From Blasia pusilla (Eukaryota), in contig CM114271.1 of NCBI GenBank assembly GCA_050084515.1, positions 35,030,001 through 35,094,000 of the forward strand: a stretch of DNA of 64,000 bases, written 5' to 3'. Position 1 is the first letter of the stretch. Every line of letters starts with the position of its first letter. Below the pieces are notes generated by a model. The model made no database searches and had not been told where the DNA came from. It saw only the letters and a program-made list of their open reading frames with translations. Shown here piece after piece: positions 9,904 through 63,915 of this stretch. Both the position numbers and the translations under genes were made by a program.

Positions 9904-10513
9904 GATGCACGGGAGAGATGAAGGGTTTGTTTTTCAACTATAGATGATGAAGTGAGTCGCGAGAAAGAAAGGCTTTTAGAGGATAGAAGATAGAGGCTAC
10001 ATGAGGAATAGGAAGGAACAAAATCAACCCTAAATGAAGAGGAGAAATTAGTAGTAGAATGCAAAATTTTCTTGTTTTTATTGAAAACTAAAGAAAAAAT
10101 TAAAAAGGTTAGAAAAAAGGTTGAAAAAGTTAGAAGAGAATGGTCAAAATTAGGGTGGGAGGAAAATTTGGAGAAAAAATGGTTTAGAGAGGGTTTAGTT
10201 TTATTTTATAAATTTTAAATATAAAAAACCTAAGTTCTGTTGCCCAAACCTAGGCCTAACCTAGTCTACCCAACCCAACCCCTTGTGCCGCAGTTGCCGC
10301 CTCCACACATCCAACAGCGCTCCCCCCTCGACCTAGATCTAACGGCCCAGATTTGGCTCAAAGCTGCCCGCTCAAATCAGCCGCAGCCGCCGCAGATCAT
10401 TCCCTGCTTTCCCCTACCCCCCTCCGCTCACTACAGGCTCCGCCATTCCCCTCACTTCTGCCTTTGTATCTTGGTTCCTAGCTTCTGGCTCCGCCTAGTT
10501 TGTGCTCTTTCGT

Positions 10514-11525
10514 TGTCGCGCCCCTACTCTCCTTGAACGTCAATCTTTAGTGTTGCGGAAGCGTACGTTCAGTAGGTCACGAACTCATTGCCGATCTGCA
10601 CCCAAACACGCACTCTCGTTATCGGGTCTGGGCCAACCAGCGTTCCAACCCACCGAGTCCTCAACTCGACGTCTCATCAAACTCAACCTTCCTTAGTTCC
10701 TAGTTTCCAAAACATGGCAAGTCCTTCAAGACTTGGAACAGACTTCCTGTTTAGTCCAGGGATCTGAAACGGCACTTGCGCGCCTAGCGATCCCACCTGT
10801 TCAACGGTCCTCGGGTGAGTTTCGAACCGAGACCCGAGTAATTGAGTCGCGGGGTGAAATCCAAGAGGAATGTCTAAAATTGCCTCAATGGACTTGGTGC
10901 AGGTTTTCCAACCCAACCCCCAAACTCACATTCCGTTCCATGCCCTTGAGCCGCCACGCGGCGCCCAAAGTGGGGTTTGGGTTCCAAGCACTCTCGGAGA
11001 CCTTCCCCCTTTCCAGTACTTCTGGGGTTCTCCAATAACCCCCCTCCCCCCCCCCCCCTTTGGAAAAAGAGGGTCGGGCCCTTCATTGTGGCCCTCAACC
11101 CGACTCCACTTACAGTCGTTTTCAGATTTTTCTCAGCCGCTGCTTATGCGTTTGCAGCGATCTTTGGTGCGTTTGAACCGGCTCTCCATAAGCTTTCCAA
11201 CTCACCCTTATTTGATCCAAACGCATCTTGGCGCTAAAAGTTATGGCCATAAATACAGTCGGAAACTCTCAAACGCTAGTGGCGTTCCAAATCCGGATCT
11301 TTCCTTTGGCAACCCACTTCCTAGACTCGACTTCTTTCAAGTCTCATTCCGCGTTTGGTCCAGGTTTCTCGGTCGCGACCATAACATCTGAAACGCGACT
11401 CCTCGCTCGCGTCTCGTCTCTTGTCTCCTCTTTGAGACTACTCCAACGCGTAAACCATCTTAGCGTGAGCCCGCTAATGTTCCGATGTTCCGCTTGGCAC
11501 TTGTTTGGTCATGAGGGTCGCGACA
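10514..11525 (-). mobile_element. Solo LTR (1012 bp) related to the chromovirus LTRs at 26128 and 32515
   Basis: TGTCGCG...CGCGACA termini; flanks ttcgt/ctcgt (5-bp TSD with one transition); reverse complement is homologous to the 26128-27157 LTR and nearly identical to 63916-64000. Confidence 0.9.
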
Positions 11526-13339
11526 CTCGTGCTCCTCTCTCCGTGCTCGCTGCGCTCCTCGAGAGCTCATGGCACTCGAGAGCCCAGTGTACTCGAGGGC
11601 TCTTTGCATTGTCTTTTCGCTCTTGGCCCGATCGTGGTCATGCTCTGTGCTCAAGGCGTCTTGAGAAACTGCCCCGAGTGCGCGTGCTTTGTTCGTGTTG
11701 CCCTCATGATGCACTCGAGAAGGAGCTCCGTGTTTGCAGGTGCAATCCTATTGCAATGGCTTCATCAGTAGGGCCCGGATCCAAATCATCACCTTTCTCT
11801 GTGGCCAAGGTGTGGCCAAGCTGGGGCTAATCCGAACGTTTTCGAGCGCCTTCTCTATCCGAGAATGGTAGTCACGTTTCCTTGCTGCCGCAAACATTGA
11901 GAAAGGGTAGATCAGCGCTCTATCATGACCATATGGATTATGTCGTAGAGTATAGTGTGCTAGTAGAGGCCATACCTTATGTAGGGCCGTAGTGTCTAGG
12001 TAGAGATGCGGTTTCATACATGGGGTTGGGGGTTACTCACTTGAGGGTGACTTTTCCAATAGGGCCCGCTCTTAGGTTGGAGGATATAGTATGGAGTGCA
12101 CTCAAAGAACAGCTAGTTCTTTGAGTTGAGCCTGTTGCGTTGGGAGTTAGCCTTGGTAGTGAGTAGAGCTCTTGGCTATGGTGGTTCCCGCAAGCTTCGA
12201 CGTGGATTCTCCCATTATGGAGTGGGTTTGGCTCGATTGTATGGGATTCTATACGTATTTTATGATAGTAGGTCTTTCATGAATTTCACTCAAAGAACTA
12301 GAGTAGATCGATGGTAGCTTCGATTGTGGATCACTAGGATTTGGTTAGGGCTGATTGTGTACTCAGCCGTGGATGTTCGTGGCTTGTGGCCTATGTTGGA
12401 GGCTTCGAGGCAACTCGTGCTAGCTCGGGGCGAGTGGGCGTGAGAGGTGGAGTAAGGAGCAAGGAGCAAGCAAGCTAGCTTGCTTGCTTGGGCGTGAGGC
12501 AGTTTTTGCAGGATTTGTGATTTGAGTGTTGCATAACTGGTCACCTATCTTTGGGCTATTATGCCTGGAAGACGCTTAATTGCTGAGTTCTTAACTATGC
12601 CAATGTACACACCGGTGTAGCTCATTTGGTGATGTTCGGAGATGTGTTAGGCGTTTTATGCATCTCAAGTTTTTGGTTGATGGACTTCTAGCGCGTAGTA
12701 CGGTATAGCCTCTCCATGCAGGTGATATTTTCAGGTGCTGCGAGTCCGACTAGAACGTCATCGACCCGCGGTGGAGTAGCTATTGCGTTAGAATTGTGTG
12801 GTGGGTTCTGTGGATTTAGGGGGTGCCACGTTTGGTGGATTTTGTTACGTTGATTTCCATTTGCGATTGGAGGATTGTCATTGGACTTCCTGTGTTTGGA
12901 TCCCCTCCATCGTTGCTTCTTGCTTGCGCACCCATTATTAGGGTTGACGCTGATTTCCAGAGTAGTGTTACTCCTGTGTGCTAACGGTAGTGAGGCTGGA
13001 GTGATGACCAGTAGACCTTGGGAGGCTTCTTGTGGTGCTGACAGTTTAGGTTGCCTACACCCATAGCTAGTAGAGCTAGAATAGTACAGCGACATTGACG
13101 TCACTTGGTTACTTAGTGGTTGTAATTTGGTGGTGGTGCGGCATCGGCGTTGGTCATCACGGAGCTGTCTGGTGGTCTGGTTGGGGACCGTGGTGCGGAC
13201 AGTGGTGGTTTCACATGGAGTGGATTGAGGTATCGGCTATCTTTTCCACTTCCGACGGTTGATGAAGAGGAGGACGGGGGTGTTCCAAACACCGAGTCTT
13301 CTACGTTGTTATCGAGTGTTGCATCTCCATTGATTTGGG

Positions 13340-14730
13340 ACATGGACGGGATATATGGGGCCATGAAGGCCCCACGACGATACTCGGGTGCAGTGGGCAC
13401 CATTGAGTTGGAGGACTTCATGCAGGAGTTTGATACGTGGTGTGATATGCAGATGTTGCGGAACGCCACGTTGTTTACACCCTTCTTGGCTTGGAAGGGG
13501 TTGTTTTAGCACTTGGCAGGACCACCCATGGATGATTACCATGAGTTTAGGAAGGACCATGTTGCTGAGATTGAGGCGTGGAGACAATATTGGTCTCCAC
13601 GCTATGTGTCTATCATCGAGGTGGTATTGGTAGTAGTGCTCCTACTATGCCAGCCAGCCCGACGTTGATTGTTACGAGTACGATCCGGAGTGGGGGTACC
13701 AGTGGAGGTACCCATGGAGGTACTAGTGGAGGTACTAGTGCCCCACCATCGTTCAGCCCGATTGCAGAGTTCTTAAAGAGGTTGAAGAAGAACTATCAGG
13801 GGGTGAAGACAGAGAAGTTGAGGAGTCTTAAGGAATTTGAGCAAAAGATTGGTGAGAGTCTTCGTGAGGCATACACTCGTATGCGACGCCTGATTTCAAT
13901 TACATATGGAGGTGATCATGTTAGGAAGTTTTTCCCAAGAGGATGGGAGACGGACTTTGGAGGATGGGCCTCATTCGGCCCCAAATTAGTATGATCATTG
14001 CGGGAGACCAGGTCATCCTCGAGAGCCTTGCTTTGATCTTCATCCAGAGTTGAGATCAGGCCGCGGCCGTGGTGGAGCAGCTCCGAGAGGCGGAGGTGGT
14101 AGAGATGGTAGGGAAGGTAGAGGTGGACCAATGGTTGGAGAGCCTACGGTGGCTATCCCTACCACTATGACAGAGTCAGCTATGGCTGCCAGGATTGAGT
14201 AGTTGGAGCAAAAGTTGGCTACTATGGCTGGTATCAAGCATAGATCAGGTTCGGGAGCAGGGGATTCCACCTCTTATGGAGGGGATGATCTCTCTTATAT
14301 GGCGAGTGCAGCACAGGTTGAGGCATCAACTGCAGTTACGAGAGGAGCCACTCGAGCGTTAGAGCCATGTGGTGCTACTGTGGAGTTGGACCCACAGAGG
14401 GGTGAGGCTAGGAGGCAGGCTAGGCTTCCCCAGTCTTTCTTGTTGTGTGAGGTGCTTAGGACTCCATCCATGGTTCCTACGCAGCCTATTGAGCCGACAG
14501 TGGGGACTGATGCATCTACATTGTGTGTAGTAGACACGGATGCAGCATCCAGTGCAGTATTCCGGATGGCAACTTCAGTGTTGGGATCCCCATTGCTTTA
14601 GGAGTTGACTTAGCTCCTGTATTTCAGCTAGCAGCCACATTGTGTGAACGTGGGGGTGTTACTGCTACACGTGTTGAGGTGGATGAGAGTGTTGCGGTGG
14701 AGCGAACCTCTACGTTAGGTGTAGCATTGA
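13340..14730 (+). pseudogene. Gag-like region of copy A
   Basis: FMQEFDTWCDMQ..., LKKNYQGVKTEKLRSLKEFEQKIGESLREAYTRMRRLI (retrotransposon gag-like); degenerate Zn-knuckle near 13990-14050; stops and frameshifts. Confidence 0.65.
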
Positions 14731-14736
14731 GTACTA

Positions 14737-15260
14737 GTGCTACTTGGCAGCAAAGCAAAGGCGAAGATGGATGCATTACGGCCCAAACGACAAACCATTG
14801 ATCGTGAGAGGCTTACACCTGGTGTATGTATGTTGGACAACCAGAGTGGGATATTCCGATTGGTGAGTCCTACAGGACAGGTGTATAGACCAGATAGAGT
14901 CTTGTTAGACTCTGGTGCCCAACCTTTGATGTTGGGAAAGGCGACATGTATTGGTTTGGGTATTTGGAGGTCAAAGCTTGAGCCTTGCCCATTCCAGATT
15001 CAAACATCACTTGGAGGAGCCAATGATAGGTCTCAATTCATGACACGGGAGAATTTCTCTGTACAATTGAGACCAGATCATGCGACTGATAGCTCCCGGT
15101 TGGGAGTACCTACAGTGGTCACATCAGCCGAGTCGTATGATGTACTAGTTGGAGGATCAGTATTGTACCCGATGGGTTTTCAGATGGATTACTAGACTAA
15201 GACATCGTCTTATAGACCTGGTTGGCAGTCCGGGGATGGACGTATGAGCCAAGCTCCTGT
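14737..15260 (+). pseudogene. Retroviral-type aspartic protease of copy A
   Basis: RVLLDSGAQPLMLG active-site motif; YDVLVGG C-terminal motif. Confidence 0.8.
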
Positions 15261-15619
15261 GAGATTTATTTAAAGGGCCCGACGCGGAGGGTCGTCCCCA
15301 ACGGTGTTAGCATCTATGGCTGGTTTTAGTGGAGTAGTCACTTGGCCAGGAGACTTTTTGGAGGGTAATGTTTATGCTATGGATTCTCCTATGCATGAGG
15401 AGGTAGAGGAGGTCCCTAGTTTTGCAGCAGTGGCATCCTCATCGTTGGATGTGCCACTTTGGAGTTCAGGCGGTGCACTACGGTAGGAGGCTGATCGCCT
15501 AGTGCAGAAGGCTTGGTGTGAGGCTATTATACCTCACGAGGAAGAGGAGGCCCCACGGCGGACTCCTACTTCTGGTCCAGTTGGGTTATTCCCTTTGGAT
15601 ACTACACCCATTGTATGGC

Positions 15620-16605
15620 AGTATCCGCCGGAGGACATTTGTGTGTTAGATCTCTTTGGTGGGATTAGCACTGGTTTGGCTGCAGTGTTGCAGGCCGGTA
15701 TTCCTATGCGGAGATACGTGTATGTGGAGCGAGATGAGACGGCCCAGAGAGTCTCATCCCGACATATTGGTCAGTTGATGCGGAGATATCCTGAGTTGTT
15801 GCCGCCATCAGCTATTTGTGGGTACCAGCATGCTTTGCCGTCACACATTGTATTGTTGGGGGCGCAGGACCTTAAGAGGGTTGGTCCTGTGGATTTGGTG
15901 ATTGCTGGATGGCCATGTCAGGGTCATACACATGCTGGTCGTGTTGAGGGATTACACGACCCTAGGTCTCGATTGTTTTGGGAGATGTTACGGGTGTTAC
16001 GACATCTTCAGGTTCACCTGGCACGTGCTCTAGCTTACATTCTGGAGAATGTTCCATTGTTGGATGACACTCAGACCCGGATGAGGGCGAGTGTTCATGA
16101 GGTGCGGTCTTGGATTGGACCAGCGGTGTTGTTGGATGCAGCGCGAGTTGGCTCGCGTGCACATCGTCCACGCTTGTGGTGGACAAACTTGGTACCTAGG
16201 GAGGTTCTACGTTGAGCATATGATGCAGTGCACCGGGATCCTTGCCTTACTGTGGATAGAATCTTGGATACTGGGCGACTTTCTCAGGTAGTGAGGGTTA
16301 TTGATCGGTCACCCATGGCAGTAGTGAACTGTGTGGGCGAGCCTAGGATGGCACTACCCACATTTTTCAGTTTTCCCTCGTCACATGCCTACAGGGAAGG
16401 TGGTCCCGAGCTTGTATGGGATTCTCATGTGCGACAGTTGGTGGAGCCTAACGCTGATGAGAGAGAGCATGCGATGGGATTTGCTACTGGTGTGACAGCG
16501 GTTGCTTCCATTTCTGAGGCTTCACGACGTCATTTTTTGGGTCATACCATGGACCTGAATTGTTTGACTTGGATTTTGAGTCTTGGTATGGCCGAGCAGC
16601 GTTGA
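15620..16605 (+). pseudogene. C5 DNA cytosine methyltransferase domain (DNMT3-like) within pol of copy A
   Basis: Motif I VLDLFGGISTG (~15643), IV AGWPCQG (~15904), VI ILENV (~16040), VIII AHRPRLWWTN (~16160), IX/X EPNADEREHAMGF...LGHTMD; one in-frame TGA at 16213; same frame as the protease. Confidence 0.93.
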
Positions 16606-16869
16606 CTTCAGACTATGTCTGTGGGTCTTCCACCCCTTGTGATGAGCTCGATGGCTACCGAGACGGTAGAGGCATCGGGTGGGGGTGAGGAGAGTAGTAT
16701 TTTGCATCCTTGGAGTAAATGGGATGTAATGGCTGGGCATGTGGAGTTGGTTGCTCATGCTGGGGGAGGAGTTATTTGCTCAGATCTTTGGTGTAGCTAA
16801 GGGTGTATCATCTTGTGAGGGGTTGCGTAGCGACCAATGGCATAAATCCTCTCCCTCTTGTGTGCCAGT

Positions 16870-18310
16870 GGAGGAGACTTGGGAGCCATTACTTGGGCCC
16901 AAGCTTACAGGAGGTGAGAAACAACGCTTGACACAGTTCCTACGTGCTTATAGGATTTTTTTTGCCTTTAGCATGAAGAAGTTGGGTGCTTTGGTTGGAC
17001 CCGGTATACGGATTGATTTGGCTAGTGATACGACAATCTTCCGTCGTCCCTACCGATATAGTGATATGGAGAGGGACCTGATTCAGAGTAGGACGTTGGA
17101 CCTTTTAGAGGCTGGATTAGTCGAGTTTTCGCATGGAGAGTATGCATTAGCCACTGTCATGCCTGCTAAAAAGGATGTGCATGGCAACTACACGGATAAG
17201 AGGATGTGTGGAGATTACCGTCCTATCAATCGGCAGACCAAGGCTGATAGGTATGCCATGCCTACACCTGAGGAGATCTTTGATGTGGTGGGACACGAAA
17301 ATATTTTCAATACTTTGGATCTTTGGGCAGGATACCATCAGTTGCCGATTGGAGAGAATGACAAGGCCAAGACAGCATTTTGAGGTGTCAACTCTCATGG
17401 CAAGGATTGTTTGTACCAGTGGAAATTCTTACCCTTTGGGTTGAAGAATGCACCTGCCGAGTTTCAGAGAGCGATGGACAGGATCCTAGCAGGGTTGGAT
17501 TTTGTTCGATGTTACATTGATGATATCTTGGTGTTCAATAACATGGTGGAGGAGCATCAGATACATTTGCAGATTGTGTTTCAGCGGTTGAAAACTCATG
17601 GTCTACGTTTGCATCCAGGAAAGTGTAAGTTCTTCCATGAGGATGTTGAGTACTTGGGTCATGTGATCTATCCAAGTGATTTGGGAGTTCAGCAAGCAAA
17701 GGTGGAGGCTATTGCACTTATTCCTTGTCCTGTAGATATGAGTAGAGTTTGGGCATTCATGGGATTGGCGAACTACTATCGGAGGTATGTGAAGGGATTT
17801 AGTGCTATGGCAAAGCCTTTGAACCAATTGTTGAAATCAGATCAGTAGTGGCACTGGGGAGATGATAAGGAGAGAGCTTTGGTGGAGCTCAAGGTCCAGT
17901 TGGTGGCGGCGCCTATCTTGAGGAGACCTATCATAGGGCGCCCATTTCAGTTTCACATTGATTGGAGTAGGTTGGGACTTGGAGCGGTGTTGACACAACA
18001 TGATGATGAGCACATGGAGTTTGTGGTGGCCTATGCAAGTCGTTTGAATAATGCAGCGGAGTCGCGCTACAGTTCATATGAGGGAGAGTGCTTGGCAGTA
18101 ATGTGGGTTGTGGCACACTTTAGGTGTTACTTGTTTGGCACACAATTTACCCTTGTTACTGATCACCAACGGCTCAAGTGGTTGATGGAGTGTGACAAGC
18201 TTACAAGGAAGCTTGCACGGTGGGCTCTTATCTTACAGGAGTATGACTTCTAGGTGGTACATAGACCTAGAGTTGCCAACCTTGATGCTGATGGGTTGAG
18301 TAGGAATCCA
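16870..18310 (+). pseudogene. Reverse transcriptase and RNase H of copy A
   Basis: RMCGDYRPIN, LDLWAGYHQ, LPFGLKNAP, CYIDDILV, FMGLANYYRR; RNase H IDWSRLGLGAVL, EGECLAV, TDHQ, ARWAL..QEYDF, ADGLSR; several premature stops. Confidence 0.95.
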
Positions 18311-18699
18311 TGTACTAGCCAAGAGGATGCAATTGGGGCTAGATGGCATGGCGAGGTTGATGAGGAGATGGTGCCAGGTTGGCATGCATCCGCCTTTTTA
18401 TGTTGGTTAGGGGTGGACTCTAGTATGGAGGACCACATGACATCTTACTCTAGTCAGAGGGTAGATGGCCAGCCTTCAGATCCTAAGGTTGGAGATGGTG
18501 ATACGGATCAGTGTGATATTCATGATGATGCGTTGGTGTTGGAGTTCCTACGGACCAGTAGGGTGCCAGACATAGTGAGTGCCAAAGAGCGAGAGCGTGT
18601 TCTTCAACGTGCTAAGAGGTATCGATTGGAGGGAACACATATTCTCCATGTGTGGGAGGATGGTAGAGTACGAGTAGTACCGTATTTGGCTCAGAGAGA

Positions 18700-19790
18700 G
18701 CGCATTGTGCGACATGCCCGTTGGGATATTTTGGGGTAAAGCGTACATATAGCTTACTCCTTGGTTAATATTGGTGGCGTGGCATGCATACTCAGGTGCA
18801 GCAGTTGGTGTCACGTTGTATGGTTTGTGACCGGGTGAGGGCATCATTCAATGCCCCTACACCATAGTTACACCCCTTGCCTATTATGGGATTGGGTTAC
18901 CGTTGGAGTGTGGACTTTGCGGGACCGTTACCGTTGACTATACAACATCATCGATATGTGTTGGTGATGGTGGAGCACTTCTCCAAGTGGATTGAGTTGG
19001 TGGCATTACCTGACAAGGCAAGTGAGGGAACGGCATATGCGTTTCTTGATAGAGTGCTTAGTCATTTTGGTGCACCAACTGAAGTGCTGACCGACCAGGG
19101 TACAGAGTTTCAGGACTTGTGTGACAAGGCGTTGATTGATCATCGGACCACGTCTCGAGATCATCCAGAGGCAGATGGTTTGGCTGAGCGTGTGGTTTAG
19201 ACGGTGAAGAGGGCATTGCGCAAGTATGGCCTACAAAAGGGGCATCTTGGAGACTAGGATATTCAGTCGCCATGGTTAGTCATGGGGTATAGGTTCAGTC
19301 GCCAAGCATCCTTGGCTTCCTTCTCACCTTATTTTCTGCTATACGGCCGAGATTCACACTTGCCAGTAGCAATTTGTTGGGAGTCTAGTGAGGTGGTGAA
19401 CCTTGATGACCCAGAGATGTGGATGAGAGTGTGTTCTTAGCGGGCAGAGCTCTTTCGGAGAGTTATGCCAACAGCCTTTGAGAATCTTGCCATTGCTCAA
19501 CACAAGGATACATTGTGGTATGCAACCATTCGGGATGGAGGTTATCAACCATCGATTCGTAGATTCCATGTGGGGAATATATCTATTTGCAGCAGATTGC
19601 ACCGACAACGTTGGATGTGACGACAGGCCGCACTATTTTACGAGTGCGCGAGGTGTTAACTTCTGGAGTTCTCATGTTGGAGGGTCGTGATGGAGTTGTT
19701 TGGAAGGACCATGTGCGTAATTGTGCGCCATACCATCTTCCAAATGTGGATGGTACTGTTGACCCAAGCTTAGCCATGATACGTGCTAGC
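18700..19790 (+). pseudogene. DDE integrase of copy A
   Basis: Zn-binding H/CxxC remnants; WSVDFAGPLP, VEHFSKW, VLTDQGTEF, HPEADGLAERVV, FSPYFLLYGR. Confidence 0.93.
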
Positions 19791-19796
19791 TTGATG

Positions 19797-19946
19797 TGCA
19801 TGTTGTGTGGGTCTGCTGGTAACGCAACCCGTATGTTGGTGTGTGATCGGTGTTCTAGGGGTTGGCACATGATGTGTTTGACTCCACGTATAGATGTTGT
19901 TCCTCTTGGAAGGTAGGTTTGTCCTCGATGTACTAAGGAGAGGTAG
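19797..19946 (+). pseudogene. PHD finger (C4HC3) at the integrase C-terminus of copy A
   Basis: CMLCGS...MLVCDRCSRGWHMMCLTP...VP.GR*VCPRC, with TAG where PHD fingers have the conserved Trp. Confidence 0.9.
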
Positions 19947-20691
19947 ATGACTTGATCTTTGCATTATATGGATTACAGATAGGCGACTAACGATGGGGCA
20001 ACCTAGCACCCGGCCTTCTGATTCGTGCACCCAAGAAGGTGTATAGCATGTAGTAGATGTATAGGGCTACTTGGGAGTTAGAGGGACCTAACCACCAGTA
20101 AGGGGGGCGAGTTGTGTACACTTGTGTTTGTGGATGCTCTCATCTATGTTATGTATGTATGTGAGTATGGTATGTCAGCGATGTATGCTGTATGACGATG
20201 TGGATTCGCACCACAACTGTCATGACTATACGGATTATGTCGTAGAGTATAGTGTGCTAGTAGAGGCCATACCTTATGTAGGGCCGTAGTGTCTAGGTAG
20301 AGATGCGGTTTCATACATAGGGTTGGGGGTTAATCCGTTGAGGGTGACTTTTCCATTGGGGCCCCTTCTTAGGTTGGAGGATATAGTGTGGAGTGCACTC
20401 AAAGAACAGTTAGTTCTTTGAGTTGAGCCTATTGCGTTGGGAGTTAGCCTTGGTAGTGAGTAGAGCTCTTGGCTATGGTGGTTCCCTGAAGCTTCGACTT
20501 GGATTCTCCCATCGTGGAGTGGGTTTGGCTCGATTGTATGTGATTCTATACGTGTTTTATGATAGTAGGTCTTTCACGGATTTCAATTGTGGTACACTTG
20601 TGTTTGTGGATGCTCTCGTCTATGTTATGTATGTTTGTGAGTATGGTATGTCAGCGATGTATGTTGTATGACGATGTGGATTTGCACGACA

Positions 20692-22966
20692 GCCATCACC
20701 AATCAAATGAGATGGAGGACGAGCACCCAATGCACCACTCCTTACATGCATCGATCAATTGGAGCAAAGGATTGTTTCCATGATGATGATGTAGCTAAAT
20801 GGAGGCCCAGAATCTGAGAGTAGCTAGTGTGGCCCTAGCCTCTACATCTTACCACGATGCTGGTGAGGATTCTGCGAGCATGGGATTTATGTGTAGTGCA
20901 TCTCAGGTGGAGGTTGCTGCGGTGGTAACTCGGATGCTACGAGAGTAATCGAGCCATCGAGAGGTGGGGTTGAGATTGACCCACAAGAGGAGATCGATGG
21001 GCAGCAGGCCAAGGTTCCCAAGTCGTTCATGTTGTTGGAGGCACTTCATACATTGTCGATAAAGCCTTGACGGCCGATTTTGCCCACGGGTCAGAAAAAT
21101 GCATCAATGTCACGAGGAGTTGGAGAGACAACTCCTATGCCGGCTCAAGTGGAGCTAATGTCGACCACATTGTTGGATTTGGCCACTAGGGTGAGCCACA
21201 CTGTTATATTCCGTCGTGGAGTTGGCGACGTTGATAGTTGGATCAGCAGAAGTGTTCTGGTTGGCCGCCATGTTGTATGAGCATGGAGAGGTGACTGCCT
21301 CTCGTTCAGAGGTAGTTGAGGAGGTGGTGGACTTGCCCTTGGAGCAGGTGCTTGAGAAGTCCCCACTAAGTCATAGCATGCGGCGGTGGCGAAGTTGGTA
21401 GATATGCGAGCTAGGCCAACGATAAAGCAATCCATGATCACACAAAATGTGGTATTGTTGGATAACCAAGCTCGAGTGTTTCGCTTGGTTAGTCCCACAT
21501 GTACGGTGTACCACCCGCAGCATGTCCAAGCATTGTCCCTTTCAGATACAGACCTCTATTGGGGGCGTATCACCCATGCATTACATGACTCGACAGGAGT
21601 TGGTGGTTAAACTCCAGCCAGAGGACGAGTCGGATAGTGCAATGGTGTGCACTCGAGTGATTACGACATCGGCGGAGTCGTATGACGTGTTAGTATGGAT
21701 TACGGTATTGTATCCCATTGGGTTCATTCTGGATTTTTGGGAGAAGACGGTTTCTTATCGGCTAGGGTGGCGATCAGGTGAAGGACATGTGAGTTATCTA
21801 CCGGTGTTGTTTGTAGGGGGTAGTGGTGATCGACCACGTGAAGATATCGTGACCACGTTGGCCACATTCATAGGTAGTGTTGGCTGATCAAGAGGGTTTA
21901 AGGAAAGGAGCACACATGCCAAGGACATTCCTGTAGTAGATAGTCCCACGGAGAGACATGCCATAGTGGGTGTCTCTTCCCCTGGTCCGTAGGTTCATTA
22001 TTATTTTTGGGGACAAGCGTTGAGATGCATGGAGTGTAGACGAGCTCGTGAGACATGCGTGGAGCCATGTCTATGTTTGGAGGAGGATACGAGAGTGTTA
22101 GATCTCTTTGGAGGGATCAACAAGATGGATTGCTGCAGTTTGGTAGTGTTGCAAGGATGATGGCACCAATGGTGCTAGATGTGTATATATAGGATAGGAG
22201 ATCATGTCAAGGACATATGTGTGTCCTATCTAGGGTAAGGGGGATCCAACTGCCAGCTAGGGGGGCGGTTGTGGGATCCCTTTGTTTATCTGTGAGTATA
22301 TTTTGTTTATGTGTGGATCTACTCGTATGTTGGGGAAGATCGGTGTTGTGTTGTGTGTAGATGTGACCAGCGATGTGGGTTGTGTAGCGATGTGTATGCG
22401 CACAACAGTTGTCACATCTTAGCTTGACATAGGTAGAGTTCTATCGCGTCCATCGCATAGAGAGTTAGTGGACTGTTCAGGTGTAGCTTAGTCCCGAGAT
22501 GTCGGATGAGGTTGGCGACAGGTCTATTGTGTCGAGAACGTCGTTTAAGGCTATTTCCCTATTTTGGTTTTAGTCTGTCAAGTGACTCGTTGACCGATTC
22601 AATGATCACCCGGTAACATGTGCACACAGGTTACTGTTCGTAGGGCTATTTTTGGGGGAAGAGCCTTTTGGCTCTTTCCAAGGATATAAGAGTGAGGAAG
22701 ATGGCTTTCCCAAGACATCTTTGTCATGTTGAGCCTTGGGAGTGTCTCTCTTGCGTAGACGTGTGTGGGTGTGTAGTAGTTAGGATGCTAGCGTCCGGAG
22801 GGTGGATGTAGTTCAATTTTTTGATGTAGATTCATGAGTGGAGTTGTGGGGTCCCTTTGTATATGCGTGAGTATATTTTGCTTATATATGGATCTACCCG
22901 TATGTTGGAGAAGATTGGTGTTGTGTGGTGTGTAGATGTGACCAGCAATGTGCCTTTCACACGACA
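20692..22966 (+). mobile_element. Internally deleted, divergent member (copy C) of the DNMT-Gypsy family
   Basis: gag/PR homology (VLLDNQARVFRLVSP, CPFQIQTS, SAESYDVLV); DNMT motif I remnant RVLDLFGGIN at ~22092-22121; then PPT, Y' (22269-22407), X' (22410-22843), Y' (22844-22966, ending CACGACA). Confidence 0.8.
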
Positions 22967-41851: not shown

Positions 41852-41865
41852 TACCGCATATACAT

Positions 41866-44237: not shown

Positions 44238-47200
44238 CTTAACGACACAGCATACATCGCTGTCACCGAACACACACACAAACATGCACGATCCCATGTT
44301 AACTCATGGCATCCAAAGAATGAGACAAGAAGTACCAAAATATCTCCAATCGCCCCCCTATTTGGTGGTTAGGTCCCTCTAACTCTAGATACCCATCTAT
44401 CCCTAACTACCATGATATACATCTCTCGGACGCTAAGACCAAGAAGGCCGGGTGCTCATGTGGCCCCATTGTTTGTTGCCTTCTTGTCATCCATGTCACA
44501 AACACAAGTCGGGATGTAGAACTACCTACTCTATGTACATCTGGGACACATCCATCGTCCCTAAGGAACCCTAATGAGAGGTGGCGTCAAACCTACCATA
44601 TGCCATCATGTCGAACATCCATCTCAGACTAGCATAGTGGCTGCACCACGGGCGGAACCACACAACATACACCGCAAGCTTGCAGGAACTATTGCTAAGC
44701 TCGGATCAACTGTACCGTCAATGTTCGGAAGATGACATGGCGCACAGTGACGCACACGGTCCTTCTAAGCCTTACCATCGCGTCCCTCTAATAAGAGAAC
44801 ACCGGATGGCAAAACCTCACGTAGTCTCAAGATGGTGCGCCCAATAGTCACATCCAACATCATGGATACCGTCTGCTACAAGTAGACATAGTCTCCGTGA
44901 TGAAACCTCCGGATAGTAGGTCGATAACCACCTCTCTAAATAGTCGCATACCTCAATGTATCCTGATGTTGCGCAATCGCCAAGTTCTCAAACATCATGG
45001 GCATCATTCTCTGTAACAACTCAGCCCTCTCACAACATGCTCCCATCCAGACATCAGGGTTATCAAGGTTCAACACCTCAATTGTATCTCGATGAATGGC
45101 CGCTGGTAAATTTGGCTCTGGGCCATAGAGCAACAAGTACGGTGAGAAAGACGCTAAGGATGCTTGCCTGCTAAATCTGTATCCCATCGCCAACCATGGA
45201 AATTGTAGGTCCCAATCTCTTAGGTGATCTCTCTGCAAGCTATACTTGCGTAGTCCTCTCTTCACCGTCTGCACAACCCGCTCCGCTAGTCCATCTGCCT
45301 TAGGATGATCTCGCGAAGTAGTGCGGTGGTCGATCAGTGTCTAATCACACAAGGCCTAAAACTCCCCGCAGAACTCTGTACCCTGGTCTGTCAACACCTC
45401 AGCTGGTGTGCCATAATGACTCAACAGTCAATCTAGGAAGGCAAACGCTACTCCCTCACTCGCTTTTTCAAGCAATGCTACCAACTCTATTCACTTCGAG
45501 AAGTGATCGACCATCACCAACACATAATGACTATGGCGCTCCGTCAAAGGCAAAGGTCTTGCAAAATCCAAACTCCATCTATAACTTAAACCCATGATGG
45601 GAAGTGGATGCAACTGTGGAGTTGGAGCATAGAATGATGCTCGGACTTGATCACACACCATGCATCTGGCAACAAACTGCTAAACGTCAATTTGCATGCC
45701 TCGCCACCAATATTGAATCTAGAGCAAGGTGTACGTCCGCTTCTCTCCAAAATGACCCAACTCCTCGTGGGCATGACCCACCAAACCTGCTCTCTGCAAA
45801 GGAGGAGGCACTACACGCACTCTACCATCCTCCCACACTTGCAACACATGTATGCCTTCCCACGGGAATCGTCTAGCTCGTTGTAGGATCCGATCCCGCT
45901 CTCTAGCACCCACTCTGCTCGCGACGCTGCCAGTACACAAGTACTCCTAGACCAATCCATCGTCGTGAATGTCTCAGCCACCTGTCATCTCCTCATCGGC
46001 CTCTGGATCTTAGGACTCTCCATCAAACCTCGCCATCAAAGTCTCAGCAATCTGGCTCTCCAGAGCCAACAAGCCCAAATAGGCTGAAGCATGCCATCCT
46101 GGCACCAACTCCTCATCACTCTCACCATGCCCACGAGCTATAGTTGCATCTCGCTGACTCGAGCATGGGTTACGGCTCAAACCATTTGCATCCTGGTTGA
46201 GCATCCCAGGTCTATGCACTACTTGGAAGTCATACTCCTGCAACAAAAGAGCCCACCTCGTAAGCTTCCCTGTAAGCTTGTCAGAATCTATCAACCACTT
46301 AAGTGGCTAATGATCAGTAATGATGGTAAAGGGATTGTCAAATAGATAACATCTGAAATGTGCGACAGCCCATATTGCAGCCAAGCACTCACCCTCATAC
46401 GAGCTATACTTTGCCTCTGCAGCATTGTTCGAGCGAGTAGCATAAGCCACCAAAAACTCTCTACCATCATTGTCATGTTGGGTGAGCATGGCTCCAAGCC
46501 CCAACATGCTCCAATCGGTATGCAACTTGAAAGGACGGCCCCTAATCAGTCTCCTCAATATGGGCGTGGACGTCAATCTGTCCTTGAGCATCTGAAATGC
46601 TCTCTCTTGCTCATCCCCCCAATGCCACTCTTGATCCACCTTGGTCATCAAGGTTAGCGGCTTTGCAATCGAACTAAAACCCTTGATGTATCGTCAATAG
46701 AAGTTTGCCAATCCCATGAATGTACGAATTCGACTCACATCAGTAGGGCATGGAATGCGTGAAATAGCCTCTACCTTTGTCTATTGCACACCAAGGCCCC
46801 CAGGGTATATTGTATGACCCAAGTACTCAATCTGGTTGTAGAAGAACTTGCACTTGCTTGGATGTAGCTTTAGCCCATGTAATTGCAATCGTCGAAACAC
46901 CTCCTCTAGATGTCGCTCATACTCCTCAACCGTGGCGCTAAAGACTACAATGTCATCAATATAACACCTAACAAAATCCAGACCTGCCAAGATCCTATCC
47001 ATAACCCTCTGAAACTCAGTTGGGGTGTTCTTTAACCTGAATGGTAAGAACCGCCACAGTACAAACAATCCTTCCCTTCTAGATCAATGCCCCAAAATGC
47101 CGTCTTCGCTTGTCCTCCAATCTGATAGGCAGTTGATGGTATCCGGCTCGCAAATCCAATGAATTGAAGACCTCTGCATGCCAAATTGCATCAAAGATCT

Positions 47201-50200
47201 CCTCACGGGTGGGCATGGCATACCTATCAGCCTTTGTCTGCCGATTGATAGGTCAGTAATCTCCACACATCCGCCTATCCGTCCAATTGCCATGCACATC
47301 CTTCTTGGTGGGCATGACAGTGGCAGATGCATACTCTCCATGCAACATTTCCACTAGTCCTGCTCCAACCAAGTCTTGGCCCCTACTCTGAATTAGAGCC
47401 CTCTCCATGTCACTATACCTATAGGGTCGTTGGAAGGTCGGCGTATCACTCGACAACTCAATGCGGATCCCTGGACCCTTCAGCGTACCCAAATCATGCA
47501 TACTAAATGCAAAACAACTCCTATAACTCTTAAGAACTGGTGTATCTGACGCCGCTCTCCTCTTGTCAACTTAGGACCCATATCTGGCTCCCAAGTCTCC
47601 ATCGTGACTACGATAGGACTCTTCGGCGCGGATGTTGGTGGTCGCTATGGTGCAACCCCATCTTGGACAATAGAACTCAGAACCACTTCCGATGCTGTGG
47701 CTATCATCTCCAAGCGTACATGCAAAACATCCCAAGAAGTCCAAGGGTGTCTCTCTCGATCACCCCTAGTGTGTCGACCTCCTTGGGTCTGGCCCCCAAC
47801 CACTGCCTCAACTGTCTCGGTAGGCATGGGGCTCACCAACGCAACAAATGTGATCTGTTGCATCCTCAAACAACGTTGCTCAGTTACTCCCAAGCTGAAA
47901 ATCCATGTCAAGCAGTTCAGGTCCATCGCCTGACCCAAGACATGACGTCGTGATGCCTCCGATAGTGACGGTACTTCCGTCACTCCTGTGGGGAATCCCA
48001 TTGCTCGCTCTCGCTCATCGGCGTTGGGCTCCAACAACCTCTATACCTAGTCATCCCAAACCAAGCTAGGTCCGGCCTCCTTGAATGCATAGGAAGCAGG
48101 AAACTTAGCAATGTGGGATAGGCGGATCGTGGCATGCCAATCCTGTTGACCATAGTCAACGGCGGTCGATCATCATGCCTCACTGCCTGTGATCGACCGC
48201 TCGGATCCAATATAGAATCCACCAACAAATCGGAGGGACGCTCCACTCTTGCATAAGCCCTCCGTAATACCTCATTAGGTACCAAGTTGGTCCACCAAAG
48301 ACGCGAGCGATGTGCTTGTGAACCCACACTCACTGCATCTAACAACACTGCCGGGCCGATCCATGCGCGCACCTGATGTGCACTCGTCACCACGCGGGAC
48401 CTCAAATCGCCCAGAATTGGAACATTCTCCAAAATGTATGTTGGAGAACGAGATTGATGCTCATGTAAACGTTGCAAGATCCGCATCATCTCCCAAAACA
48501 ACCTGGACCGAGTGTCAGCTAACCCACTACCTTGTTCAGCACTGGATTGGCCCTGACACAGCCAACGAGCAGTGACCAAGTCTATGGTCCCTACCCGCTC
48601 CAAGTCCTGCGCCCCCAACAATGAAATCTCCCTCGGTAGGGAACTCTGGAAACCTTGAATGGCGGACACAGACAACAAGCCGGGAAAACGGAGGAGTAAC
48701 AGCGCCACATGGTGAAGTGAAGCGCGCCTCACAACATCATCAATCTCCACATATAGATACTGCTGCATGTGCACTCCAGCCTGCAAAATAGCAGCTAACC
48801 CAGTGCTGATCCTTCCAAAGAGATCCAACATCCAAATACCCTCCTATGGGATGCACAACACAATCAGGGTGGTGTCCAAATGGGTCATAGCAGCACTCCT
48901 ACCTACGTGGGGTTCCTCTGACCCGTCACACTCTAGTGCAAATGTCTCGCTCCACGCGGTCTGCATATGCTCAGTGGCTAAGCGTTGAAGCTCCTCAGTC
49001 AATCCCCAAAACGACACCTCTCCTCCACGAACTGATGCGGTAGTAATCTAGGGAAAACCCCATCGGGTATATCAGTGCTCCACCAGCCAAGACATCGTAG
49101 GACTCTGCATCAGTCTCTATCGCCTTGGCTCGCACCACGGACTCATCTGTAGGATGTCCCACGCGAATCCTCACCATGACCTCTTGTCGGGTGATATACT
49201 GTGTGATACTCGCTCCACCCAAGGATGTATGTATCGGAAATGGACAACGCTCCACATCGGCTCTCGTCAAGCCCCCATTCCTCTGAATGACGCTTTTCCC
49301 AACATCAGGGGTTGCACTCCTGAATCCAACAAGACGCGCTATGGATTGAAAGCTCTACCTCTAGGACTCACCAACTGGAAGACCTCTCCATGATTATCTA
49401 GCAACACAACACCAAGAGAAAACATGGCACGCTCTATCGCGGGTCTAGCGGGCTTCTCCGCCATCCTAGCAGCCGCAGTCTGCCATGAATCTGACGTGGA
49501 CGGCCCCAGCGTCCGCTCCAAGGGCAAGTCCATCACCTCCTCTGCAATCACCTCTGAACCTGATGTAAGAACTCCAACTCCACGCTCACATAGCATAGCG
49601 GCCAGCCAAAAAACCTCGGCGGGCGTACCTCCCAACATCATAACATCGGAAGCAGAAAATAAAGGAGCGGGGTACACAACGGTGGCCGCCCCCAACAACG
49701 TGCTCGACACATGCCCCTCTTGAGCATCAACAATATAAGAGTTGTTGCACTTGCTTCTCTCATCGCCCTCCATGCCTGCACACCAACAACATCACCAACT
49801 CTCCAAGAACTTTGATGAGGACCCATCGATGGGGTCCTCATCGCTTCGGACAACGTGAAAGACTTAGGAAGCCTAGTCTATTTTCTGGCTTCCCCTCATT
49901 GTGGATCCAACTCTCCGGTTGCTCCACGCGTCACAACTGTGGTGGCCTCCATCTGGGCAACCCCGCACATCCAACCAAGATCCTCCATATCTCTGGCTGC
50001 TCCATATGATGTCGATGCCATGGATCCGGCATCGGGTAACCTCAATGCCATAGCGGCAATCTGCTCTTGTAGCTACTGTATCTGAGCAGCCATCCTAGCC
50101 TCACATCCGGCATCTCCCTCGGCACGTCTAGGTGGTGGTACTCTACCTCCTCCACAAGCAGCTCCACCACCCTGTCGGGCAACTCCAACTTCTCGTTCCC

Positions 50201-62966: not shown

Positions 62967-63915
62967 ATGGTCGAGCACTTCTCAAAGTGAATAGAGTTTA
63001 TTGCATTGCTGGAAAAAGCGAGTGAGGGAGTAGCGTTTGGCTTCCTAGATTGAATGCTGAGTCAATACGGCGCACTAGTTGAGGTGTTGAGAGACCAGGG
63101 TACAGAGTTCCGTGGGGAGTTTCAGGCCTTGTATGATCAGGAACTGATCGACCACCGCACTACTTTGTGAGATCATCCTGAGGAAGATGGACTAGCGGAG
63201 CGGGTTGTGTAGATGGTAAAGAGAGGACTACACAAGTATGGCTTGCAAAGAGGTCACCTAGAAGATTGGGACCTTCAGTTGCCGTGGTTGGCGATCGGAT
63301 ATAGATTCAGCAGGCAGATATCCTTAGCATCTTTCTCACCGTATTTGTTGCTTTATGGCCGAGAGCCAAATTTACCTGCGGCCATTGGTCAAGATGTTGA
63401 TGAGGTGTTGAACCTTGATGACCGTGATGTATGGATGCAAGCATGTTCTCAGAGGGCTGAGTTGTTTCGGAGAGTGATGCCCATGGCGTTTGAGAACTTG
63501 GCGATTGCGCAACATCAGGATACGTAGAGGTATGCAACTATTTGGTGAGGTGGTTATTGACCTACTATCCGGAGGTTTCATCACGGAGACTATGTCTACT
63601 TGCAGCAATCGGCATCCACGACATGGGATATGATCACAGGGCGCATCATCTTGAGAGTGCGTGAGGTTTTGCCATCCGTGTTCTCTTATTGGAGAGACGC
63701 GATGGTATGGTTTGGAAGGACCATGTGCATAACTGTGGGCCATGTCATCTTCCAAACATTGACGGTACAATTGATCCGAGCTTAGCAATAGTTCCTGCAG
63801 GCTTGCGGTGTATGTTGTGTGGTTCCACCCGTGGTGCAATCACTATGCTAGTTTGTGATGGATGTTCGAGAGGATTACATATGGCATGTTTGACCCCACC
63901 TCTCACTAGGGTTCA
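62967..63915 (+). mobile_element. DNMT-Gypsy fragment D: integrase core to PHD finger, inverted relative to copy B and closely similar to it
   Basis: MVEHFSK*IE, DQGTEF, DGLAERVV, FSPYLLLYGREP, CMLCGSTRG...VCDGCSRGLHMACLTPP; matches the reverse complement of ~44570-45515. Confidence 0.9.

What the first reader, a model, noticed from the sequence alone, without database searches (positions are those of the whole stretch)
14737..17850. DNMT3-like cytosine methyltransferase embedded between protease and RT in a Gypsy polyprotein
Seen: the main C5-MTase motifs in standard order, with catalytic PC and ENV intact in copy A and in the protease frame. DLFGGISTG and AHRPRLWWTN resemble DNMT3 (SLFDGIATG, AHRARYFWGN) more than MET1/CMT, and the order is not permuted as in DRM. 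Known: retrotransposon-borne DNMTs were reported in dinoflagellates and charophyte algae (de Mendoza et al. 2018). A multi-subfamily lineage in an apparent land plant would extend that. Inference: the enzyme is packaged with pol and methylates new cDNA or the insertion site.
Basis: partly seen in the sequence, partly recalled or inferred. Interest (0 to 1): 0.85.

Follow-up and report, generated by a model that had tools for sequence, protein, structure and literature searches.

The report
Liverwort Gypsy retrotransposon carrying a DNMT3-like methyltransferase
Two dead copies of a plant jumping gene that carries its own DNA-methylating enzyme lie in this liverwort DNA, extending to land plants a kind of element so far described only in an alga.

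Summary
Window 15487-16602 (+) encodes a complete, non-permuted C5 cytosine methyltransferase domain (PF00145). It lies between an aspartic-protease region and RT-RNaseH-integrase-PHD of a Ty3/Gypsy element. By sequence, profile and predicted fold its closest solved relatives are DNMT3A/B/C.

The host is a marchantiopsid liverwort, judged from a flanking F-box gene. Relatives are annotated as hypothetical proteins in Marchantia, Calypogeia, Sphagnum and Closterium.

Both window copies are pseudogenes, and copy B has lost motifs I and IV. The family itself is under purifying selection on the DNMT. It has several hundred copies in the host and is transcribed in sense.

New anatomy:
- The DNMT ends a gag-protease-DNMT reading frame that stops at a conserved in-frame UAG, directly ahead of RT.
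- The terminal repeats are arranged A-coding-B-A-B, as published for KnitGypsy-Dnmt3 of Klebsormidium.
- A sister lineage in chlorophytes places the DNMT between RNase H and integrase.

Verdict: a new, land-plant member of the known Gypsy-DNMT3 kind. That the enzyme methylates the element's own cDNA is inferred, not shown.

The parts
11920..12288 (+). Copy A, terminal repeat A1 (LTR-like; start TA, from TG in A2, end CA)
   Evidence: 93.8% identical over 369 nt to 20217-20585
13342..14601 (+). Copy A, decayed gag region (Met of MDGIYGAM at 13342)
   Evidence: Aligns to the N-terminus of Marchantia P0003. Retrotrans_gag match is weak, E 0.0057, below cut-off.
14731..15195 (+). Copy A, aspartic-protease-like region (LLDSGA 14902-14919)
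   Evidence: No Pfam hit of its own. 40% identity, E 1e-27, to the Asp_protease_2 stretch of P0036.
15487..16602 (+). Copy A, DNMT3-like C5-MTase domain, motifs I, IV, VI, VIII, IX, X in standard order; pseudogenised
   Evidence: PF00145 E 4.5e-10; DNMT3A best in PDB; motif coordinates
16213..16215 (+). In-domain TGA stop of copy A (copy B has Arg here)
16828..16830 (+). Conserved in-frame TAG that closes the gag-PR-DNMT frame in copy A; a 1-nt insertion just after it shifts the RT frame in this copy
16870..17848 (+). Copy A, reverse transcriptase (YIDDIL 17513-17530)
   Evidence: PF00078 E 3.6e-24
17849..18253 (+). Copy A, RNase H
   Evidence: PF17917 E 3.3e-34
18254..19200 (+). Copy A, integrase region (core 18868-19200)
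   Evidence: PF00665 E 8.7e-14
19563..19916 (+). Copy A, C-terminal PHD finger
   Evidence: PF00628 E 1.2e-7; PHD relatives in PDB
20112..20215 (+). Copy A, repeat B1, preceded by a purine run AAGGGGGG
   Evidence: 94.3% identical to 20587-20691; sequence
20217..20585 (+). Copy A, repeat A2 (TG...CA)
20587..20691 (+). Copy A, repeat B2. The element ends here: 311 DNA reads run on into unlike sequence at 20691.
44555..49791 (-). Copy B, a divergent dead copy without detectable terminal repeats. DNMT at 47873-48966, motif I G to R, PC to LC.
47645..47647 (-). Conserved in-frame TAG of copy B, in frame with the start of its RT
21383..21737 (+). Protease-only fragment of a third copy
   Evidence: 49% identity to copy A protease
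62967..63898 (+). Integrase plus PHD fragment of another copy, at the window edge
   Evidence: 68-71% identity to copy A

Best explanation
Window 11920-20691 (copy A) and about 44555-49791 (copy B) are two decayed copies of a Ty3/Gypsy-type retrotransposon family of a marchantiopsid liverwort.

The family's coding plan is gag(CCHC)-protease-DNMT3-like methyltransferase | UAG | RT-RNaseH-integrase-PHD. Its terminal repeats are arranged A-coding-B-A-B. It belongs to the streptophyte 'Gypsy-DNMT3' kind first described as KnitGypsy-Dnmt3 in Klebsormidium nitens.

Shown here:
- the domain identity and order;
- DNMT3 as the nearest solved family;
- purifying selection on the DNMT on deep branches;
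- the conserved in-frame stop;
- high copy number and sense transcription of the family in the host;
- the death of the two window copies.

Inferred:
- About 0.6: RT-RH-IN-PHD is made by read-through of the UAG. Gag-PR-DNMT would then be the abundant product and the DNMT would enter the particle fused to Gag.
- About 0.35: the enzyme is an active C5-MTase that methylates the element's own new cDNA or integration site.
- The PHD finger on the integrase steers integration by reading histone H3 tails.
For: Domain identity. PF00145, RVT_1, RNase H, rve and PHD all match in copy A. PDB phmmer gives DNMT3A at 2.9e-10, then DNMT3B/3C, DRM at 7e-6 with permuted coordinates, and HaeIII/HhaI; no DNMT1 or CMT among 47 hits. 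A family profile gives DNMT3A 8.6e-27, DRM 3.3e-15 and HhaI 8e-10. The AF2 model has pLDDT 91.6 and pTM 0.90. All listed Foldseek top hits are DNMT3A/B/C, best E 5.9e-18, TM to target 0.80-0.83.

Host and relatives. The F-box gene is 68% identical to Marchantia and 62% to Riccia. Of 62 longer homologues, 19 are named Marchantia, 2 Calypogeia, 2 Sphagnum and 3 Closterium.

Selection.
- In 148 full-length family domains, C144 is kept in 99%, E187 in 100%, N188 in 95%, R227/R229 in 98/97%, N234 in 100% and ERE 325-327 in 95-99%.
- NG86 dN/dS of the DNMT is 0.80 for pairs with dS below 0.1, 0.26 at dS 0.5-1 and 0.20 at dS above 1. RT-RH gives 0.78, 0.24 and 0.16.
- Copy A against copy B: DNMT dN 0.295, dS 1.67.

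Conserved stop. The homologous codon is TAG in 36, TAA in 11 and GAG in 1 of 48 metagenome loci, followed by CAA CCC. Both window copies have TAG. Marchantia P0003 (1278 aa, gag-CCHC-PR-DNMT) ends within two codons of that site. RNA reads of the host read TAG CAG CCA there.

Repeats. The A1...B1-A2-B2 arrangement is seen in copy A and L055; B1-A2-B2 is seen in L015 and L046. This matches the A-coding-B-A-B arrangement stated for KnitGypsy-Dnmt3.

Abundance and RNA. DNA depth is about 306 on the element against about 0.36 on the unique flank. The DNMT bins are as deep as the RT and IN bins. Three RNA runs give depth 2-79 across A1 to A2, more than 20-fold biased to the sense strand.
Against: - Both window copies are dead.
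- Only 2 of 80 metagenome loci have a full DNMT without stops, so no intact full element was seen as DNA.
- RNA reads are 95-99% alike, so they come from other copies. Roughly half of the RNA at 18476-19466 carries an internal deletion with a 9-nt filler that is absent from the DNA reads. Much of the RNA may therefore come from a defective copy.
- The paper reports detectable methylation in yeast only for the SymbioDIRS-Dnmt3 domains and discusses a 'lack of activity' of the other tested DNMTs; a K. nitens insert is listed among the constructs (passages).
- dS above 1 is saturated.
- The 80 loci come from a few related metagenome records, perhaps one host, so the 47 of 48 stops are not independent.
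- No covariation supports an RNA structure after the stop.
- No K. nitens or host DNMT3/DRM sequence was in hand, so no tree places the domain among them.
- Neither a target-site duplication nor a primer-binding site was identified.
Confidence: 0.8

Rival explanations
1. The DNMT stretch is a passenger: a captured host gene fragment or nested insertion that decays neutrally and does nothing for the element.
For: Both window copies are broken. Copy B has lost motif I and the PC dipeptide. Close pairs have dN/dS near 0.8.
Against: - The domain holds the same position in two window copies, 80 loci and the Marchantia, Calypogeia and Closterium proteins.
- Deep-branch dN/dS is 0.20-0.26, like RT-RH. 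The near-neutral value for close pairs is seen in gag, PR and RT too, so it reflects decay after insertion.
- Catalytic residues are 95-100% conserved in 148 domains.
- DNMT read depth equals RT and IN depth.
Confidence: 0.04
2. The domain is selected but does not methylate DNA. It might methylate the element's RNA, or act as a DNA- or chromatin-binding tether without catalysis.
For: The paper reports detectable methylation in yeast only for the SymbioDIRS-Dnmt3 domains and discusses a 'lack of activity' of the other tested DNMTs, with a K. nitens insert among the constructs; its authors raise RNA methylation for the LINE-borne DNMTs (passages). The domain is fused to Gag, an RNA-binding protein.
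Against: - The nucleophile Cys, ENV, RxR and the ERE/G motifs are kept at 95-100%, which argues for catalysis.
- The nearest solved relatives are DNA enzymes, DNMT3A/B/C. The RNA enzyme DNMT2 scores only E 2e-5.
Confidence: 0.2
3. The annotated liverwort proteins are domesticated host genes (a host DNMT3 paralogue fused to retroelement remains), not parts of mobile elements.
For: 19 Marchantia gene models carry the domain. P0003 is an open 1278-aa frame with 18 member sequences.
Against: - The family has several hundred copies by read depth, with diverse flanks at the element's end.
- It has terminal repeats.
- It is full of stops in most copies.
- RT-RH-IN-PHD follows in frame.
Confidence: 0.03

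Closest known systems
KnitGypsy-Dnmt3 of Klebsormidium nitens (de Mendoza et al. 2018, PMC5890265; abstract and passages read, one supplementary table searched)
   Same: - Ty3/Gypsy domain set with a non-permuted DNMT3-like domain inside the coding region.
- Repeats arranged A-coding-B-A-B.
- DNMT under purifying selection (paper: Ka/Ks below 0.2; here 0.20-0.26 on deep pairs).
- Streptophyte host.
   Different: - The host is a land plant (liverwort), with relatives in other liverworts and in mosses.
- I could not see Fig. 4c. So I cannot say whether the K. nitens element also has the DNMT before RT, a stop codon after it, or a PHD finger; the main text has no 'PHD'.
- No K. nitens sequence was available for direct comparison.
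Chlorophyte and metagenome Gypsy elements with RT-RNaseH-DNMT-integrase-PHD (for example pol of Scenedesmus sp. PABB004; Haematococcus, Monoraphidium, Chromochloris proteins)
   Same: Related DNMT3-like domain (31-42% identity, E 1e-130 and below with the profile). Same RT, RNase H, integrase and C-terminal PHD.
   Different: The DNMT lies between RNase H and integrase, not between protease and RT. 22 of 25 long representatives have this order. The DNMT tree splits the two orders cleanly with SH-like support 99.
Animal DNMT3A/3B/3C catalytic domain
   Same: Best sequence, profile and fold match; same motif order.
   Different: About 20% identity. The domain is about 90 residues longer. It has no PWWP or ADD domain. 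It is fused to Gag-protease of a retroelement.
Plant DRM2 / NtDRM
   Same: Belongs to the wider DNMT3 group; second-best solved family.
   Different: DRM is circularly permuted. Query residues 48-185 align to chain residues 227-353, whereas in DNMT3A they align to the N-terminal part. The window domain is not permuted.
DIRS / SymbioDIRS-Dnmt3 elements
   Same: A-coding-B-A-B repeat arrangement and a DNMT3-like domain.
   Different: DIRS elements use a tyrosine recombinase. This family has a DDE integrase (rve) and an H2C2 zinc domain.
Chromoviruses (Ty3/Gypsy with a chromodomain on the integrase); one lies at window 23909-33547
   Same: A chromatin-reader module at the integrase C-terminus.

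Membership tests
C5 cytosine DNA methyltransferase (PF00145) | Profile match above the curated cut-off | tested here: met
   Copy A scores 39.9 bits against a cut-off of 22, E 4.5e-10
C5 cytosine DNA methyltransferase (PF00145) | Catalytic motifs I (FxGxG), IV (PCQ), VI (ENV), VIII (RxR), IX and X present in that order | tested here: met
   All are present in copy A at the coordinates, but with a TGA at 16213 and Gly308 changed to Glu. Copy B fails motif I (G to R) and motif IV (PC to LC). The motif numbering is recalled.
DNMT3 subfamily | Closer to DNMT3 than to DNMT1/MET1, CMT, DNMT2 or bacterial enzymes | tested here: met
   Profile against PDB: DNMT3A 8.6e-27, DRM 3.3e-15, HhaI 8e-10, DNMT2 2e-5; no DNMT1 or CMT below 1e-3. 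All listed Foldseek top hits are DNMT3.
DNMT3 subfamily | Groups with host DNMT3 in a phylogeny that includes DRM and algal retrotransposon DNMTs | not testable with these tools
   No host DNMT3, DRM or K. nitens sequence could be obtained. The tree holds only retroelement-type relatives.
Ty3/Gypsy LTR retrotransposon | Order protease-RT-RNaseH-integrase (DDE) | tested here: met
Ty3/Gypsy LTR retrotransposon | Two identical-at-birth LTRs (TG...CA), PBS, PPT, target-site duplication | tested here: inconclusive
   A1 and A2 are 93.8% identical with TG/CA ends, and a purine run lies before B1. An extra B repeat follows A2. No TSD or PBS was recognised.
Streptophyte Gypsy-DNMT3 (KnitGypsy-Dnmt3) | Gypsy domains plus DNMT3-like domain in the coding region | tested here: met
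Streptophyte Gypsy-DNMT3 (KnitGypsy-Dnmt3) | Repeats arranged A-coding-B-A-B | tested here: met
   Copy A and L055 show the whole arrangement; L015 and L046 show B-A-B.
Streptophyte Gypsy-DNMT3 (KnitGypsy-Dnmt3) | Purifying selection on the DNMT across copies | tested here: met
   dN/dS is 0.20-0.26 for pairs with dS above 0.5
Streptophyte Gypsy-DNMT3 (KnitGypsy-Dnmt3) | Sequence relatedness to the K. nitens copies themselves | not testable with these tools
   No protein named Klebsormidium appeared. The charophyte Closterium falls in the same DNMT clade.
DIRS retrotransposons | Tyrosine recombinase instead of DDE integrase | tested here: not met
   rve and Integrase_H2C2 are present; no recombinase match was seen
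Chromovirus | Chromodomain at the integrase C-terminus | tested here: not met
   A PHD finger stands there instead

The most novel reading that the evidence does not exclude
A Viridiplantae-wide Gypsy lineage has carried a DNMT3-like enzyme and a PHD reader since before chlorophytes and streptophytes split. In the streptophyte branch the enzyme moved into the gag-protease frame, ahead of a leaky UAG. It is therefore made in Gag amounts and packaged. This branch is still abundant and transcribed in liverworts, including the model Marchantia polymorpha, where it methylates its own cDNA and contributes to the host methylome.
Probability: 0.25. Interest if true: 0.75.

Novelty: new member of a known kind. 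Interest (0 to 1): 0.5.

Why it matters
What retrotransposon-borne DNMTs are for is still open. The paper that described them calls their specific role unclear (passages).

This finding shows that the streptophyte Gypsy-DNMT3 kind did not stop at charophyte algae. It is a high-copy, transcribed family in a liverwort. It is also present, unrecognised, as 19 'hypothetical protein' gene models in Marchantia polymorpha, which I recall as a transformable model plant.

That makes the question directly testable:
- activity of an intact domain;
- read-through of the UAG;
- methylation of new insertions.

It also warns annotators that DNMT counts in bryophyte genomes are inflated by retroelement copies.

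Tried and rejected
- Whole-genome search: no genome is held for this window.
- Earlier notes of the scan: none.
- Expression of the flanking host gene: the look-up of sequencing runs on window 7000-9500 gave 'no RNA holder listed'. On laying reads, the F-box gene had almost no RNA reads. I draw nothing from either.
- RNA structure after the UAG: RNAalifold on 12 sequences gave a covariation term of -0.48 and only 2 of 19 pairs with double changes. The one conserved hairpin overlaps the conserved ETWEP...GPKL coding, so there is no support.
- The stop in more divergent loci (L056-L079, 33-48% identity): too decayed and frame-shifted to read.
- Names of distant relatives: only Scenedesmus came back among 10 clusters.
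It was repeated with FastTree after randomly dropping about 70% of the unnamed RT-RH-DNMT rows (171 down to 57).
- DNA joints 20693 to 11923 (5 reads) and 20111 to 20587 (23 reads) could mean circles, tandems or B-only copies. Because B1 resembles B2 and A1 resembles A2, they can equally be reads of other copies' B-A junction laid on the wrong repeat. I use neither.
- Strand-biased deamination as the cause of the G+T-rich sense strand: rejected. C>T (0.108) and G>A (0.093) are nearly equal, and the skew is already present in the majority states.
- Terminal repeats for copy B: none found.
- Literature: searches for Marchantia or liverwort or bryophyte with retrotransposon and DNMT found no description of these elements in land plants. 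Passages of PMC12344493, PMC11982613, PMC6453930, PMC5784723 and the 2026 preprint were read. PDF supplements and figures could not be read, so Fig. 4c and the supplementary trees of de Mendoza 2018 may bear on this.
Full report
WHAT IS THERE

Copy A lies on the plus strand. The stop-to-stop frame 15487-16215 (242 aa) matches Pfam DNA_methylase at E 4.5e-10, above the curated cut-off. Read through one TGA (16213-16215), the domain runs to 16602. It carries these motifs in the standard order:
- DLFGGIS
- GWPCQG
- ILENVP
- AHRPRLWWTN
- NADEREHAMGF
- FLGHTMD

Upstream, in the same frame, is a protease-like stretch (14731-15195, LLDSGA). It has no Pfam hit of its own, even at E up to 10. It aligns at 40% identity (E 1e-27) with the part of relative P0036 that matches Asp_protease_2. 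Downstream come RT, RNase H, integrase core and a PHD finger.

A second copy, B, lies on the minus strand at about 44555-49791 with the same order. It is 55-70% identical in the DNMT. Its motif I reads FGR and its motif IV reads LC. A protease fragment (21383-21737) and an integrase-PHD fragment (62967-63898) belong to further copies.

Both full copies are pseudogenes. Copy A has 12 in-frame stops in gag-PR-DNMT, and both copies have frameshifts.

WHICH KIND OF METHYLTRANSFERASE

- Sequence against all PDB chains: DNMT3A is best (2.9e-10), then DNMT3B/3C. DRM follows at 7e-6, with the query's N-terminal motifs aligned to the C-terminal part of the chain, as expected for a permuted enzyme. Then come HaeIII and HhaI. 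No DNMT1 or chromomethylase appears.
- Profile of 35 family members: the gap widens. DNMT3A 8.6e-27, DRM 3.3e-15, HhaI 8e-10, DNMT2 2e-5.
- Fold: an AlphaFold2 model of an uninterrupted relative (L001) is confident (pLDDT 91.6, pTM 0.90). Every listed Foldseek top hit is a DNMT3A/B/C catalytic domain, best E 5.9e-18, TM to target 0.80-0.83.

I could not build the requested tree with host DNMT3 and DRM, because no such sequences could be obtained.

HOST AND RELATIVES

No genome is held for this window, and the organism label of the sequencing runs is coded.

An intronless F-box/kelch gene at 7608-8804 is 68% identical to a Marchantia polymorpha protein and 62% to one of Riccia fluitans. The host is therefore a marchantiopsid liverwort other than those two.

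The DNMT query found 62 longer proteins. Of these, 19 are named Marchantia polymorpha, 2 Calypogeia fissa, 2 Sphagnum and 3 Closterium. The best are 71-72% identical.

An exhaustive HMMER search found 3312 cluster representatives at E up to 1e-3 and 223 at E up to 1e-30. Many of these are proteins of 1000-3400 aa.

TWO ARCHITECTURES

- Of 25 long representatives, 22 have RT-RNaseH-DNMT-integrase-PHD. Two have the DNMT ahead of RT, as here.
- Among 312 session proteins with the domain, the commonest forms are RT-RH-DNMT-INT-PHD (110), DNMT alone (72) and PR-DNMT (44).
- A FastTree of 137 DNMT domains splits with SH-like support 99. One side has 60 rows: all 37 PR-DNMT type rows, 22 unassigned and 1 Marchantia gene model scored as the other type. 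The other side has 77 rows: 56 RT-RH-DNMT type and 21 unassigned. About 70% of the unnamed RT-RH-DNMT rows had been dropped at random before the tree was built.
- Named chlorophytes fall on the second side: Scenedesmus, Haematococcus, Monoraphidium, Chromochloris.
- Marchantia, Calypogeia, Closterium and the window fall on the first side. Copy A sits in a 13-row clade (support 100) with the liverwort proteins.

A CONSERVED STOP AFTER THE DNMT

In the 80 metagenome loci fetched with the domain, gag-PR-DNMT and RT are usually in one frame, separated by a single stop at the same place. Across 48 loci that codon is TAG in 36, TAA in 11 and GAG in 1. It is followed by CAA CCC ATG G.

- Copy A has TAG at 16828-16830. 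A private 1-nt insertion then shifts RT into another frame.
- Copy B has TAG at 47647-47645, in frame with the start of its RT.
- Marchantia P0003 is an open 1278-aa gag-CCHC-PR-DNMT protein that ends within two codons of this site.
- RNA reads from the host read TAG CAG CCA at this place.

As I recall it, UAG CAR YYA is the tobamovirus-type read-through context. That is a recollection, not a test. No downstream RNA structure is supported.

The stops are not independent. The loci come from a few related records, and some more distant relatives (the P0078 cluster) have DNMT and RT in one continuous protein.

My reading is that the family makes mostly Gag-PR-DNMT and, by read-through, a smaller amount of the full fusion.

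TERMINAL REPEATS

Copy A has:
- A1 at 11920-12288;
- B1 at 20112-20215;
- A2 at 20217-20585;
- B2 at 20587-20691.

A1 and A2 are 93.8% identical. B1 and B2 are 94.3% identical.

L055 shows the same four repeats, and L015 and L046 show B-A-B. In the DNA reads, 311 reads run on into unlike sequence at 20691, so the element ends with B2.

This is the 'A-coding region-B-A-B' arrangement that de Mendoza et al. describe for DIRS elements and state also holds for KnitGypsy-Dnmt3 (passages). A purine run precedes B1. I found no target-site duplication and no primer-binding site.

SELECTION AND DECAY

Catalytic residues are kept in 95-100% of 148 full-length family domains.

Pairwise NG86 dN/dS, medians:

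| Region | dS below 0.1 | dS 0.5-1 | dS above 1 |
|---|---|---|---|
| gag | 0.93 | 0.20 | 0.14 |
| PR | 1.19 | 0.21 | 0.39 |
| DNMT | 0.80 | 0.26 | 0.20 |
| RT-RH | 0.78 | 0.24 | 0.16 |

The near-neutral values at dS below 0.1 reflect decay after insertion.

Copy A against copy B gives 0.18 for the DNMT and 0.12 for RT-RH, with saturated dS. So the domain was held by selection about as strongly as RT while the family diversified.

Decay is driven by deamination:
- 763 of 1057 in-frame stops sit at Gln, Arg or Trp codons of the reference.
- C>T and G>A run at 0.108 and 0.093 per site-copy, against 0.027-0.030 for the reverse transitions.
- CG and CHG contexts run at 0.17-0.19, against 0.072 for CHH.
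- CpG observed/expected is 0.58 in copy A and 0.66 in copy B, against 0.89-0.95 in the flank, the host gene and a young chromovirus.

Only 2 of 80 loci keep a full DNMT without stops.

IN THE HOST

A whole-genome DNA run gives a mean depth of about 306 over the element against about 0.36 over the unique flank. This points to several hundred copies within 95% identity. The flank figure rests on few reads.

The DNMT bins are as deep as the RT and IN bins, so the domain is not missing from most copies.

Three RNA-seq runs cover A1 through A2 at depth 2-79, more than 20-fold biased to the sense strand, and fall to about 1 outside.

Two cautions apply. The reads are 95-99% alike, so they come from other copies. 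A junction 18476 to 19466 with a 9-nt filler appears in 14, 26 and 39 RNA reads and in no DNA read. A defective copy may therefore supply much of the RNA.

COMPARISON AND NOVELTY

The closest known thing is KnitGypsy-Dnmt3. It shares the domain set, the DNMT3 type, the repeat plan and the selection.

The new point is the host range: land plants, in liverworts and mosses. The 2018 survey table contains no Marchantia or Sphagnum, and the held table of the 2025 re-survey contains no Marchantia. Six literature searches found no description in bryophytes. A 2026 preprint still cites only 'streptophytes (Gypsy-DNMT3)' from the 2018 paper.

I cannot tell whether the stop codon, the PR-DNMT-RT order and the PHD finger are new, because the figure is not held.

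The mechanism remains inference. In yeast the paper detected induced methylation only for the SymbioDIRS-Dnmt3 domains and discusses a 'lack of activity' of the other tested DNMTs; a K. nitens insert is listed among the constructs.

VERDICT

It is a new land-plant member of a known kind. The two copies in this window are dead. Interest is moderate, mainly because Marchantia makes the function testable.

Noticed in passing
window 23909-33547: A young chromovirus-type Ty3/Gypsy element is present as two near-identical units 6.39 kb apart (95-100% identity). Its integrase is open and ends in a chromodomain (PF00385 E 5.6e-11). CpG observed/expected is 0.95.
   Followed up: partly
window 7608-8804: An intronless F-box/kelch host gene (399 aa), 68% identical to Marchantia polymorpha MPTK1_8g04630. 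It had almost no RNA reads in the three runs laid.
   Followed up: partly
window 18476-19466: An RNA-only junction skips 989 nt (the integrase core) with a 9-nt filler. It appears in 14, 26 and 39 reads of the three RNA runs and in none of the DNA reads. The ends are CA..TA, so it is not a canonical intron. A transcribed deletion derivative is likely.
   Followed up: no
window 12001-24000 (+) and 44001-52000 (-): The sense strand of the DNMT-Gypsy copies is G+T-rich (GC skew +0.22 to +0.27, AT skew -0.10 to -0.18). The skew is already present in the majority states of the family (G 1364, C 816, T 1386, A 1071). It is therefore not due to strand-biased decay, and its cause is unknown.
   Followed up: partly
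window 10269-11525: Another high-copy repeat (DNA depth 68-206 per orientation) with sharp ends at 10513 and 11525, where hundreds of reads run on into unlike sequence. It was not classified.
   Followed up: no
window 55219-55747 and 57403-57850: Two tandem arrays with periods of 66-67 nt (7 copies) and 64 nt (5 overlapping 192-nt copies), 62-82% identity.
   Followed up: no
window 34000-42000: A low-GC block (GC 0.32-0.38, CpG observed/expected 0.36) without long ORFs or Pfam hits in the two frames tested.
   Followed up: no
proteins P0146, P0240, P0267, P0282, P0168 (not in the window): Chlorophyte green algae (Scenedesmus, Monoraphidium, Haematococcus, Chromochloris) carry a sister Gypsy lineage with RT-RNaseH-DNMT3-like-integrase-PHD. 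I did not find it described in the papers searched.
   Followed up: partly
L055:14108-14443 and window 19563-19916: The PHD finger on the integrase is nearest, by sequence, to PHD fingers of KMT2C/D, DPF3, UHRF1/2, ATXR5, KDM5 and PHF21A (E 1e-7 to 1e-4). As I recall, several of these read unmodified H3 tails. This is a lead for targeting, not a test.
   Followed up: partly
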